Shown here in pieces: positions 1 through 43,279 of a DNA stretch of 64,000 bases. Every line of letters begins with the position of its first letter. Positions within the stretch are counted from its first letter, which is position 1. Source of the DNA: Klebsiella phage KPP2018; sequence record NC_110934.1; one strand, written 5' to 3'. A program made the translations under genes and the position numbers. The notes below the pieces were generated by a model. That model saw nothing but the letters and a program-made list of their open reading frames with translations, did no database searches and was not told the origin of the DNA.

Positions 1-699
1 TTACCGTGCCATATTCCTGAAAGAAGTTTTTGTATCAAATCCATGCGCTGCTAACCTGTCTTTATCTGATACTTTAATCATATCAGGCTCACCAGTTCCT
101 AGTACACCAAAGATATACTGTTCGAGAACTTGGTGTAAACGGTATAAGTTACTTTCAATTTCCTGCCACGGAATACCTGACTGATGGAAACGAATGTTAG
201 TCTGAATCACGAAGTTACGAACATCATCGTTATCGTTCTTTTTAATACCTTTCACATATGCAATCGGTACACGCAGTTCGGATAAGATACGTTCTGCTTT
301 AGGTTTTGCTTCAGCGAGCAAATCACGCATTGTTTCACGAACATCTCCACGACTCTTATCCATTAAGTAAGAGCGAGCATGCAATCCCATCTCTTCCATT
401 TTATCGAACATAGTGTCGAGATTAAACGTTTTGAAGCTAAATGCTGGATGCCAGCAGTACAGCTCGTGTAACCAGTAAACTTCACCTGCAACAAATAGTG
501 GGTTTACAAAATATTCGAAATCACCACGAAAAGATAGCGAGCCATCACGAAATACCTGGCGAGTATGCACAATGTTCTTTTCTGCATCATCGGTTACTTT
601 AACCAGCAACTCTTCAGTTTTACGCTCCCAAACACGATCTGGGTCGAACAAACTGTTTTGCAAATCATACACATCGGCGAACTTAGAAATAATCCTCAT
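1..699 (-). CDS. Hypothetical protein, 232 aa; duplicate at 29465..30163
   Basis: ORF track; T5-type promoter at 705..778; start of the next gene overlaps its 3' end. Confidence 0.7.
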   Translation of the reverse strand: MRIISKFADVYDLQNSLFDPDRVWERKTEELLVKVTDDAEKNIVHTRQVFRDGSLSFRGDFEYFVNPLFVAGEVYWLHELYCWHPAFSFKTFNLDTMFDKMEEMGLHARSYLMDKSRGDVRETMRDLLAEAKPKAERILSELRVPIAYVKGIKKNDNDDVRNFVIQTNIRFHQSGIPWQEIESNLYRLHQVLEQYIFGVLGTGEPDMIKVSDKDRLAAHGFDTKTSFRNMAR

Positions 700-704
700 A
701 TTTA

Positions 705-778
705 ATCCTCTTGCCTCAATCTATAAACATATTATACAAAAGTTTGGGCATCTAAGCAACTAAAATTTTATTATAAAA
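705..778 (-). promoter_or_regulatory. T5-type early promoter (-10 TATAAT at 731..736, -35 TTGCTT at 754..759, A/T UP element, conserved transcribed start)
   Basis: Matches the window-wide motif tcaatttataNaNatattataNNN(17)NagcaaNtNaatttttaa as written on the plus strand. Confidence 0.7.
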
Positions 779-781
779 ATA

Positions 782-818
782 GCCCAGTCGCAAAAGTGCA
801 GGCTGGGCTTTGTCATTA
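782..818 (-). terminator. Rho-independent terminator hairpin (agcccag...ctgggct followed by a T-run), apparently usable in both directions
   Basis: GC-rich stem followed by atttttat on the minus strand, after the stop of CDS 854..1234. Confidence 0.55.
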
Positions 819-41480: not shown

Positions 41481-41501
41481 GAATTTATAAGATATATTAT
41501 A

Positions 41502-42071
41502 TTAGAAATTTAGCTTCATAGCAAGAAAATTTTTCAAGTTTTCGGTAGACATCTCATCCACATCTACAGGAGAAACAAATCCATTTAATTGTCTAGCAAA
41601 CTTTTCACCAGCAGGATCATTGTCCCCAACAGCTACCAATTTAAAAGGTAGTAATTTCAGTTGCTTTAATAACGCTTTTCCTGGAGAAGAACCCAACATT
41701 GCCAGGGCTGGATAACCCGCATTATGTAATGCAACTGCCTTAAATACAGATTCAGCAATCAATACTACTTTTTCATCCCCATTGAGAGTTTCTAGTCCCC
41801 ATACACACTGTGTAGTAGAATAAGTAAAGTATTTAGCTTCAAAGGGGCACTTACCATGACCTTTTGGAGCAGAAGGATTATAAGTTTGATAGCCCCTCAA
41901 CATTCCAGAGAAATCATACAACGGGACTGTTAGCCACCCTTCCGGACTTAACCAGCAATGATATTTATCTGTATCAAATCCTCTAGATAAGAGGTGCTGT
42001 GTTAGCTCATCAACATTCATATTTGGTTCCTCTCTCAAATTTATAGATATATTATACAGAGAATTTAGCAT
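41502..42071 (-). CDS. TOPRIM-domain protein (copy 2)
   Basis: Same as 12038..12607. Confidence 0.55.
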   Translation of the reverse strand: MLNSLYNISINLREEPNMNVDELTQHLLSRGFDTDKYHCWLSPEGWLTVPLYDFSGMLRGYQTYNPSAPKGHGKCPFEAKYFTYSTTQCVWGLETLNGDEKVVLIAESVFKAVALHNAGYPALAMLGSSPGKALLKQLKLLPFKLVAVGDNDPAGEKFARQLNGFVSPVDVDEMSTENLKNFLAMKLNF

Positions 42072-42286
42072 TCAAGCAATCAAATTTTTTAACTTTTTAG
42101 AGGAAAATCATAGGGCACTTAAGGGTAGCAGATAAGTGGTGAGGACCAAAATTTGTGACCCCACTAAAAATCCAGGGGCAATTTTTAAAGACCCCTTGAC
42201 ATTTTCGCTGGGGTAGTGTAAAGTATATGTTATGGATGAGTGATCAAAGAGACACACATTTTCTATATACTAGGAGGTGTCAAAAA

Positions 42287-43279
42287 ATGACAGAAGAAGT
42301 AGCTAAGAGTCCTGAGACCGTCGCTAGCGTTGCAGCAGAACTGCACCGTCACGAGGAATCAGATAAGAAAAAGTGGGAGAAGGTCAGAGCCTACGAAGAG
42401 AAACATCGTGAACACGATGAAGATGATGAAGAAGATGACGATGATGAGTATTGTCATAAATATGGAAAACGTAAAATGCAAGAACCAGTAAACGTATTCA
42501 CTAGTGGCTTCCCTGGCCTAATGGGTGGTTACCCAGCAAACGCAGGTGCTTTCGGTGGTGAAGGTATGGGACTATTCGGAGCTATCCTAATCGGTGCTCT
42601 ATTAACAGGCGGATTCGGTGGTTTTGGTGGATTTGGTGGACGTGGTGTAGTTGGTGAAGGTACCGCAGTTGATGCAGTACTTCAGAACCAAGATACCGCT
42701 AGTATTCTAGCAGCTATTAACACTACTCGTACAGAAGCTAACCAGGGTACTGGAGCTGTTTTAAGCGCAGTTAACAATGGTTTTAGCCAGACATCCCAAA
42801 ACCAGAGCCGTGATACTCAGTCTGTACTAACTACGATCTATGGTACGGGTGCTAATCTGTCTAATCAAATCTGCCAGGAAACTCGCAACGTTATTCAGGG
42901 TCAGTTCGATCTTTCTCGCCAGATTGATCAATCTTTCGCAGCTAACCAGATAGCTCGTGCACAAGATAAGTTTGATTCTGCACAGATCGCTTTCCAGCAG
43001 ACTTTACAAACTAATAACCAGTTTGCCGCTGTTCAGGCTCAGATGTGTGCTAACCAGAACTCTCTGGAACGTCAGATCGCTGAATGTTGCTGTGAACTTC
43101 AGACTGCGATCGCTGGTGTAACTACTGCGCGTATCCAGGATGAGTTAGACGCATGTCGCCTACGTGAAGCAATCGCTGCGGGTAGCGGTGCTAACGGTCA
43201 GGTAATTAATCAAATCGCTTTAAGTCTTGGTGCTATCACTCAGACTCTGGCTGGTCTGCAGGCTAAACTGCCGGCTTAA
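42287..43279 (+). CDS. Low-complexity protein, 330 aa: acidic DEDDEEDDDDE tract, GGFGGFGGFGG glycine repeats with a hydrophobic segment, then a Q/N/T/S-rich region and a C-terminal CCC motif
   Basis: SD aggagg 8 nt upstream of the ATG at 42287; sigma70 promoter at 42196..42224. Confidence 0.7.
   Translation: MTEEVAKSPETVASVAAELHRHEESDKKKWEKVRAYEEKHREHDEDDEEDDDDEYCHKYGKRKMQEPVNVFTSGFPGLMGGYPANAGAFGGEGMGLFGAILIGALLTGGFGGFGGFGGRGVVGEGTAVDAVLQNQDTASILAAINTTRTEANQGTGAVLSAVNNGFSQTSQNQSRDTQSVLTTIYGTGANLSNQICQETRNVIQGQFDLSRQIDQSFAANQIARAQDKFDSAQIAFQQTLQTNNQFAAVQAQMCANQNSLERQIAECCCELQTAIAGVTTARIQDELDACRLREAIAAGSGANGQVINQIALSLGAITQTLAGLQAKLPA

What the first reader, a model, noticed from the sequence alone, without database searches (positions are those of the whole stretch)
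1..43057. 13.6-kb near-identical direct repeat with a 29,464-bp period; one copy ends inside a gene
Positions 1..13593 and 29465..43057 carry the same roughly 25 ORFs, 26 tRNAs and promoters. Copy 2 is continuous with both flanks: the i-spanin gene runs into it and the 350-aa Gly-rich gene runs out of it. Copy 1 begins exactly at the window start, which is also the first base of a stop codon, and ends mid-codon in that same gene at 13593 before foreign-looking DNA. This is not a simple concatemer, because the sequences after the two copies differ (13594.. vs 43058..). It is also not a T5-style terminal repeat, since it contains tRNAs rather than the A1/A2/dmp genes and its copies are only 15.9 kb apart. 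I cannot tell from sequence whether this is a real segmental duplication (a second tRNA dosage block), a chimeric assembly, or a mis-resolved terminal redundancy.
Basis: seen in the sequence. Interest (0 to 1): 0.8.

Follow-up and report, generated by a model that had tools for sequence, protein, structure and literature searches.

The report
Spurious 29.5-kb duplication, T5-like phage record
The 13.6-kb repeat is the visible end of a perfect head-to-tail 29.5-kb duplication in the GenBank record of the T5-like Klebsiella phage KPP2018; it is most likely an assembly or editing artefact, not biology, and it makes that record the "longest" genome of its genus.

Summary
The repeat is real in the sequence: 1-13593 equals 29465-43057 with one mismatch. 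The window comes from Klebsiella phage KPP2018 (OQ031075.1, 137,988 bp), a T5-like Tequintavirus, identified by exact protein look-ups. Every gene tested between 13594 and 29464 also has a second identical copy in that record, 67-68 CDS upstream and outside the window. The true unit is therefore 29,464 bp (13594-43057), present twice head to tail. Copy 1 "starts" at base 1 only because the window cuts it there. The differing sequence after the two copies is what a tandem duplication predicts. The "foreign-looking" DNA after 13593 is the ordinary right end of the T5-type terminal repeat. The junction is blunt, with no microhomology, and it cuts two genes. It is absent from every collection searched. 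Removing one unit leaves 108,524 bp, a typical T5-like genome with one terminal repeat. A real duplication would need about 148 kb in a capsid that holds about 122 kb. A published comparison had already removed a duplication from this record. Best explanation: an untrimmed contig-end overlap joined as a circle, or a similar artefact. Reads were not available, so this is inferred. Low interest.

The parts
1..13593 (.). Last 13,593 bp of duplication copy A (the tRNA block and small early genes). The window start cuts it on the left.
   Evidence: It is identical to 29465-43057 except for one base. The upstream part of copy A is inferred from the paired KPP2018 accessions.
13593..13594 (.). Novel junction joining the end of the unit to the start of the unit. 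It is blunt, with 0 bp of microhomology.
   Evidence: The left parent reads ...GCTAACCAG|AACTCT and the right parent in nine relatives reads ...CAGGCGCT|TTATGATAATG. No record spans the junction in the phage collection, it has no match in the plasmid or E. coli collections, and an exact-pattern scan found it in none of IMG/VR, metagenome contigs or GTDB genomes.
13594..43057 (.). Complete copy B of the 29,464-bp unit. It runs from inside the terminal repeat to the middle of the Gly-rich gene.
   Evidence: It is collinear with MM-1 7836-35933 and Th1 7075-38175.
13594..16020 (+). Right-hand ~2.4 kb of the T5-type terminal repeat region.
   Evidence: The annotated MM-1 LTR is 1-10407. The terminal-repeat ends of MM-1 and PP502935 map to window position ~16,020.
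12823..13599 (+). Truncated 258-aa copy of the Gly-rich gene. Its last codon and its stop codon come from across the junction. It is annotated as KPP2018_118 (WBF69907.1).
   Evidence: This protein occurs in KPP2018 only.
42287..43279 (+). Intact 330-aa Gly-rich gene, annotated as KPP2018_186 (WBF69975.1).
13594..13699 (+). 3' remnant (about 35 codons) of a conserved 76-aa terminal-repeat gene (Th1_008 homologue), cut by the junction.
   Evidence: All relatives carry the full 76-aa gene at this place.
29059..29508 (-). i-spanin gene. It crosses the apparent left boundary of the repeat. It has two accessions in the record (WBF69876 and WBF69943), but the window holds only one copy.
9336..9336 (-). 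The only difference between the copies (A here, C at 38800). In copy A it breaks the loop-closing pair of the anticodon stem of tRNA-Asp. Copy B carries the allele found in fp01.
43058..64000 (.). Single-copy downstream genome (early and replication genes), continuous with copy B.

Best explanation
The window is part of GenBank record OQ031075.1 (Klebsiella phage KPP2018, a T5-like Tequintavirus). That record carries a perfect head-to-tail duplication of a 29,464-bp segment. The segment runs from ~2.4 kb inside the terminal repeat, through the early and lysis genes and the tRNA block, to the middle of a 330-aa gene.

The duplication was most likely created in silico. A T5-like genome assembles as a pseudo-circle because its two terminal repeats collapse into one. 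An assembler, typically a long-read one, can run past its own starting point and leave a contig whose two ends overlap by tens of kb. If that contig is then treated as circular and re-started elsewhere without trimming the overlap, the old contig end (13593) is butted against the old contig start (13594). End-to-end joining of two overlapping contigs would give the same product. On this explanation the phage has one copy of the segment and a normal genome of ~108.5 kb plus a second terminal repeat.

Shown: the repeat, the junction anatomy, the source record, the second copy of the unseen part, and the arithmetic. Inferred: that no real DNA molecule carries the junction, and the particular route by which the artefact arose.
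For: 1. Source and full extent. The truncated junction protein is exactly KPP2018_118 and occurs only in KPP2018, on a 137,988-bp contig. The intact gene is KPP2018_186. Nine genes of 13594-29464 have a KPP2018 copy 67-68 tags upstream: 051/119, 052/120, 058/125, 060/127 and WBF69856/69923, 69864/69931, 69874/69941 and 69876/69943 as pairs, plus KPP2018_055 by name only. The window holds each only once.
2. Arithmetic. 137,988 - 29,464 = 108,524 bp. This falls among close relatives deposited with one terminal repeat: 107,784, 108,987, 108,988, 109,873 and 110,466 bp. The genus median is 110,832 bp, and KPP2018 is quoted as the longest Tequintavirus (PMC12639943).
3. The junction is blunt, has no microhomology, and cuts two conserved genes.
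4. No record spans the junction in the phage collection, it has no match in the plasmid or E. coli collections, and an exact-pattern scan found it in none of IMG/VR, metagenome contigs or GTDB genomes. All ten related contigs carrying the adjacent 70-aa gene show the normal context. None of the 60 T5-like records listed shows two full copies of the end of the unit.
5. The single difference damages a tRNA-Asp stem in copy A, while copy B has the allele seen in fp01. A consensus error near a contig end would fit this.
6. Authors of a published comparison removed 'a ~20-kb duplication' from the KPP2018 genome before aligning it (PMC10644984).
7. Established knowledge: the T5 virion holds 121,752 bp (T5 contig length), and T5 packaging cuts at defined sites. 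A real duplication would require about 148 kb.
Against: No reads, coverage data or assembly method were available, so the artefact is inferred and not demonstrated. The junction is internal to a record deposited as a complete genome. One mismatch between the copies is also what a very recent real duplication would show. The offset between paired locus tags changes from 68 to 67 and back to 68. This suggests small sequence or annotation differences between the copies outside the window, which a pure copy-paste artefact would not give (independent consensus of two contig ends would). The published note says '~20 kb', not 29.5 kb.
Confidence: 0.65

Rival explanations
1. A misassembly seeded by a real but unrepresentative molecule. 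A chimeric long read (two fragments joined during library preparation or in the pore), or a rare rearranged or defective genome in the lysate, carried the junction between ~36 kb and ~7.8 kb. The assembler then threaded the loop twice. The junction exists in a few reads, but the duplication is not the structure of the phage.
For: A blunt junction with no microhomology is typical of ligation chimeras. The copies are near-identical with one difference. The size and uniqueness arguments are the same as for the best explanation.
Against: It does not explain by itself why the record minus one unit equals a normal genome length so neatly, although a loop traversed twice would give that result too. 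No read data are available.
Confidence: 0.2
2. A real tandem segmental duplication fixed in the phage. It doubles 21 tRNA genes, the lysis cassette and about 60 early genes, and arose by illegitimate recombination between sister genomes in a replicating concatemer.
For: Head-to-tail copies with one novel junction are the anatomy of a real tandem duplication. The record was deposited as a complete genome with the junction annotated internally. One base differs between the copies. From established knowledge, tandem duplications are known in lambda, T4 and P22.
Against: The virion DNA would be about 148 kb (108.5 + 29.5 + about 10 kb for the second terminal repeat), against 121.75 kb for T5 and 118-125 kb for the full-length relatives seen here. 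No compensating deletion is evident, because unique content is a normal 108.5 kb. The duplication is absent from all relatives examined. It truncates two conserved genes. Other authors removed it.
Confidence: 0.08
3. A mis-resolved or novel terminal redundancy, in which the repeat would be the phage's true direct terminal repeat, moved or enlarged relative to T5.
For: The unit starts inside the canonical terminal repeat. Some phages do carry tRNA genes in very long terminal repeats, for example XacN1 with 66-kb repeats holding 56 tRNA genes (abstract of PMC5852040, listed).
Against: The two copies are adjacent and not at opposite ends of the unique sequence. The breakpoints lie inside genes. 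The canonical terminal-repeat boundary and its flanking motif array are conserved at ~16,020. The pre-early genes (dmp, A1, A2) lie outside the unit in all relatives.
Confidence: 0.03

Closest known systems
Untrimmed end overlap of a circular or pseudo-circular contig, a well-known assembly artefact (own knowledge: Canu-type contigs and the rationale for Circlator-type trimming)
   Same: There are two near-identical head-to-tail copies. The junction is arbitrary and blunt. Total length equals true length plus overlap. Rare consensus differences separate the copies.
   Different: The overlap is internal to the record and not at its two ends, so an extra re-origin or joining step must be assumed. 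The assembly method of OQ031075.1 is unknown to me.
T5-type long direct terminal repeats (LTR/RTR of 9.5-10.4 kb: MM-1 10,407 bp, PP502935 9,508 bp, BF23 9,743 bp)
   Same: It is a long, near-perfect direct repeat in a T5-like genome, and the unit includes the last ~2.4 kb of that repeat.
   Different: The length is 29.5 kb. The copies are adjacent. The content is early genes, lysis genes and tRNA genes, without dmp/A1/A2. The breakpoints lie inside genes.
Real tandem duplications in tailed phages (lambda, T4 rII region, P22; own knowledge)
   Same: The geometry is head to tail with a single novel junction.
   Different: Those duplications stay within the packaging limit or are paired with deletions. 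This one would exceed T5 capsid content by about 22%.
Jumbo phage XacN1 terminal repeats carrying tRNA genes (PMC5852040)
   Same: tRNA genes are duplicated by a long direct repeat.
   Different: XacN1's repeats are true genome termini in a 385-kb genome. Here the copies are tandem and internal.

Membership tests
T5-like phage (Tequintavirus, Demerecviridae) | Nucleotide similarity and gene order shared with T5-like genomes (terminal-repeat region, early genes, lysis cassette, tRNA block, replication genes). | tested here: met
   Identity is 92-97% over about 90% of a 20-kb query against 122 records. The window is collinear with MM-1, Th1 and fp01. The proteins are named as Klebsiella phage KPP2018.
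T5-type terminal repeat | The repeat copies lie at the two physical ends, separated by the whole unique genome. | tested here: not met
   The copies are adjacent, with a period of 29,464 bp equal to the unit length.
T5-type terminal repeat | It contains the pre-early genes (dmp, A1, A2) and ends at the conserved right boundary. | tested here: not met
   The unit starts at the equivalent of MM-1 7836, downstream of dmp/A1/A2. It runs about 27 kb beyond the terminal-repeat boundary at window position ~16,020.
Real tandem segmental duplication | Head-to-tail copies with a single novel junction, and normal flanks on both outer sides. | tested here: met
   The left outer flank lies outside the window and is inferred from the locus tags.
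Real tandem segmental duplication | Junction-spanning reads and about 2x read depth over the unit. | not testable with these tools
   No reads are available. The KPP2018-specific proteins occur only in NCBI sources and not in Logan assemblies of sequencing runs. The KPP2018-only junction protein could not be found in the contig index.
Real tandem segmental duplication | The resulting genome fits the capsid and packaging system. | tested here: not met
   The record is 137,988 bp with one terminal repeat, so about 148 kb with two. T5 is 121,752 bp, and the full-length relatives seen in the searches are 118-125 kb. The capacity limit itself comes from established knowledge and was not measured here.
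In-silico overlap or concatenation artefact | Record length minus one unit equals a normal genome length. | tested here: met
   The result is 108,524 bp, against 107.8-110.5 kb for the closest relatives and a genus median of 110,832 bp.
In-silico overlap or concatenation artefact | An arbitrary blunt junction, with no microhomology, that is unique to this record. | tested here: met
In-silico overlap or concatenation artefact | No sequencing read contains the junction. | not testable with these tools

The most novel reading that the evidence does not exclude
KPP2018 really packages a genome of about 148 kb with a 29.5-kb tandem duplication that doubles its tRNA set, its lysis cassette and about 60 early genes. 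That would mean a T5-type capsid and site-specific packaging system can tolerate about 22% extra DNA, or that the phage has an enlarged capsid.
Probability: 0.06. Interest if true: 0.6.

Novelty: not a real feature. Interest (0 to 1): 0.1.

Why it matters
The main value is database hygiene. OQ031075.1 is quoted in the literature as the longest Tequintavirus at 137,988 bp (PMC12639943). Its duplicated genes inflate gene and tRNA counts, pangenome statistics and intergenomic-similarity calculations. One group has already had to cut the duplication out by hand (PMC10644984). Giving the exact unit (29,464 bp) and the exact junction lets the record be corrected, or lets the depositors test it quickly. 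There is also a lesson for the scan itself: a repeat that begins exactly at a window edge should be read as truncated. If the duplication were real, it would challenge what is assumed about T5 capsid capacity.

Tried and rejected
1. I looked for the source or the junction elsewhere. I ran megablast of a 600-bp junction probe against the phage, E. coli and plasmid collections. I scanned IMG/VR, metagenome contigs and GTDB genomes for the exact 38-mer. No record in any of these collections spans the junction. OQ031075.1 is not in the phage collection. The contig index did not return the junction protein.

2. Record start: fp01 holds the same sequence at nearly the same offset from its own start, which suggested that the window begins at a record start. 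fp01 actually starts inside the 232-aa gene, and the locus tags show that the window start is internal to the KPP2018 record. I rejected this idea.

3. Homing-endonuclease cut or graph branch point: the window start and apparent left repeat boundary (29464/29465) lies within the 12 bp that a 543-bp segment replaces in MM-1 (annotated there as an HNH endonuclease gene) and in Th1. This suggested a homing-endonuclease break or an assembly-graph branch. It is moot once the repeat is shown to continue left of the window, so the coincidence is by chance.

4. T5 nick sites as read or contig ends: the major-nick consensus R/GCGCRGG (PMC3517423) occurs on the minus strand at 15542, 16486, 28587 and 43991. 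None of these is at a breakpoint. I rejected this idea.

5. Microhomology-mediated recombination: there are 0 shared bases at the breakpoint in nine relatives.

6. Literature searches for T5 packaging-capacity data and for papers on overlap artefacts gave nothing directly citable. Those two points rest on my own knowledge.

7. I estimated where the record starts, assuming the window is record 64,001-128,000. The estimate is the equivalent of Th1 position ~69.4 kb, inside the primase/helicase gene and about 200 bp past its start. That is not an obvious chosen origin, so the result is inconclusive.
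Full report
**Observation**

Window 1-13593 and 29465-43057 are identical apart from one base (9336 A versus 38800 C), and identity ends exactly at 13593/43057 (family D3). The repeat is therefore real in the sequence and far beyond chance. 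ARAGORN finds 21 tRNA genes in each copy, plus one tRNA-Arg at 45024, not 26 per copy.

**What the DNA is**

- A 20-kb probe across the junction region matches 510 phage records. Of these, 122 cover at least 80% of the probe, and the best matches reach 92-97% identity. All of those listed are T5-like phages of Salmonella or Escherichia.
- Escherichia phage MM-1 has both terminal repeats annotated (LTR 1-10407). Against it, window 13604 onward aligns from MM-1 position 7836 and stays collinear through the lysis genes, the tRNA block and beyond.
- Against Th1 and fp01, 13594-64000 is likewise one collinear run. Window 1-13593 maps a second time to the tRNA block.
- The right end of the terminal repeat, taken from MM-1 and from PP502935 (whose two ends give a 9,508-bp repeat), maps to window position ~16,020.
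- The "foreign-looking" DNA after 13593 is therefore the ordinary last ~2.4 kb of the T5-type terminal repeat, followed by normal early genes.

**The junction**

- On the left, the 330/350-aa Gly-rich gene (intact at 42227/42287-43279) is cut after ...AAC CAG. It then reads TTA TGA from the other side of the junction.
- On the right, 13594 falls inside a conserved 76-aa gene of the terminal repeat. Nine relatives read ...CAGGCGCT|TTATGATAATG... at this place.
- The two parental sequences share no bases at the breakpoint, so the join is blunt.
- No record spans the junction in the phage collection (INPHARED). It has no match in the plasmid (PLSDB) or complete E. coli genome collections. An exact-pattern scan found it in none of IMG/VR, the metagenome contigs or the GTDB genomes.
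- Ten related contigs that carry the adjacent 70-aa gene all show the normal upstream context.

**Source and true extent**

- Exact-sequence look-ups identify the window. The truncated 258-aa junction protein is "KPP2018_118 [Klebsiella phage KPP2018]" (WBF69907.1). It is found in that phage only, on a 137,988-bp contig. The intact gene is KPP2018_186.
- The i-spanin occurs once in the window (29059-29508, just left of copy 2). In KPP2018 it has two accessions, WBF69876 and WBF69943.
- I then tested genes spread over 13594-29464. Seven have two KPP2018 accessions each:
  - the 49-aa gene right after the junction (tags 051 and 119);
  - the 70-aa gene (052 and 120);
  - a 248-aa gene (058 and 125);
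  - a 204-aa gene (060 and 127);
  - a 153-aa gene;
  - the 173-aa phosphatase;
  - the dNMP kinase.
- For an eighth gene, of 64 aa, only the upstream copy KPP2018_055 is visible in the truncated accession list.
- The paired copies lie 67-68 CDS apart.
- The whole 29,464-bp segment 13594-43057 is therefore present twice, head to tail, in the record. The window shows only the last 13,593 bp of the first copy.
  - Copy 1 "starts" at base 1 because the window cuts it there.
  - The sequences after the two copies differ because copy A is followed by copy B, and copy B by the rest of the genome.
- That base 1 is also the first base of a stop codon is a coincidence. So is its position at the spot where MM-1 and Th1 carry an extra 543-bp segment, annotated as an HNH endonuclease gene in MM-1.

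**Real or artefact?**

No reads are available, so this part is inference. Five lines of evidence point to an artefact.

1. Arithmetic. 137,988 - 29,464 = 108,524 bp. This is the size of the closest relatives deposited with one terminal repeat (107,784 to 110,466 bp). The genus median is 110,832 bp, and KPP2018 is quoted as the longest member (PMC12639943).
2. Packaging. With its second terminal repeat, a real genome would be about 148 kb. T5 is 121,752 bp, and the full-length relatives seen in the searches are 118-125 kb. From established knowledge, T5 packages between defined cut sites into a T=13 head that is already densely filled. Its known viable length variants are deletions.
3. The junction is blunt, cuts two conserved genes and is unique to this record.
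4. The only difference between the copies breaks the loop-closing base pair of the anticodon stem of tRNA-Asp in copy A. Copy B carries the allele seen in fp01. A consensus error fits this, although it does not prove one.
5. [quoted passage not shown]

**Most likely route**

T5-like genomes assemble as pseudo-circles because the two terminal repeats collapse into one. A contig that runs past its own start leaves overlapping ends. Joining those ends as a circle and choosing a new origin, or butting two overlapping contigs together, gives exactly this result: a tandem repeat whose junction is old contig end against old contig start. I give this purely in-silico route 0.65.

The rivals are:
- a misassembly seeded by a chimeric read or a rare rearranged molecule: 0.2;
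- a real fixed duplication: 0.08;
- a shifted terminal redundancy: 0.03.

**Points that do not fit neatly**

- The tag offset between paired genes changes from 68 to 67 and back to 68. The two copies were therefore not annotated identically, which hints at further small differences outside the window.
- The published note says about 20 kb, whereas the tags and the period indicate 29.5 kb.

**Rejected ideas**

- The breakpoints do not coincide with the T5 nick sites. The consensus R/GCGCRGG (PMC3517423) has minus-strand matches at 15542, 16486, 28587 and 43991. These fit the classical 7.9%, 18.5% and 32.6% nick map (percentages from my own knowledge), but none is at a breakpoint.
- The window start is not the start of the record.

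**Verdict**

It is the visible tail of a 29,464-bp tandem duplication in the deposited KPP2018 record. It is most probably an assembly or editing artefact that others have already noticed. It has low biological interest but is useful as a correction to a public record.

Noticed in passing
window 15552-16153 (also 17952): There are eight copies of a 15-mer, TGTGCAAATCCGACA, with at most one mismatch. All are on the + strand and they cluster around the right boundary of the terminal repeat (~16,020). About 0.1 copies are expected by chance. The region has no convincing ORFs. It may be a protein-binding array linked to the injection-stop or terminal-repeat boundary region of T5-like phages.
   Followed up: partly
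window 15542-15549, 16486-16493, 28587-28594, 43991-43998 (minus strand): These sites match the published T5 major-nick consensus R/GCGCRGG. Their positions correspond well to the classical nick map at about 7.9%, 18.5% and 32.6% of the genome. In total 6 sites were found against 2 expected by chance.
   Followed up: partly
window 710-58512, 22 copies (families D1/D2): A ~65-nt repeat family lies upstream of the minus-strand genes. Read on the minus strand it gives TTGCT(T)...TATAAT followed by an AT-rich stretch. This is the familiar family of strong T5 early promoters.
   Followed up: no
window 29462-29473: MM-1 and Th1 carry an extra 543-bp segment here, between the i-spanin gene and the 232-aa gene, annotated as an HNH endonuclease gene in MM-1. 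KPP2018 lacks it, and the two genes overlap by 44 nt instead. The window start happens to fall at the equivalent point of copy A.
   Followed up: yes
KPP2018 record, i-spanin copies WBF69876.1 and WBF69943.1 (window 29059-29508 for the second copy): The two identical i-spanin copies carry different product names in the record, 'putative i-spanin' and 'putative terminase'. The offset between paired locus tags also shifts from 68 to 67 and back to 68. The two copies were therefore not annotated identically, and they may differ slightly outside the window.
   Followed up: partly
cluster 1 member P0007 (protein accessions QPI14921.1, QPI15110.1 and QPI15539.1, named for Salmonella phages GEC_vB_N5 and GEC_vB_N3): This homologue of the Gly-rich protein is recorded on a contig of 148,669 bp. 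That is far longer than any T5-like genome, so it may be another over-long or concatenated assembly.
   Followed up: no
members MFP9170236.1, MFP9058635.1, MFP9065728.1 and others: Partial T5-like proteins are recorded on very short contigs (400-2,700 bp) labelled Enterococcus faecalis. Others are labelled Citrobacter, Shigella or Salmonella. This looks like T5-like phage DNA contaminating, or co-sequenced with, bacterial assemblies.
   Followed up: no
window 12038-12607 (and 41502-42071), minus strand: This 189-aa gene is annotated as 'DNA primase' in relatives. According to the BF23 paper, the T5 TOPRIM protein ORF071, once annotated as a primase, is now considered the anti-retron protein Rad. 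I did not check whether this gene is its orthologue.
   Followed up: no
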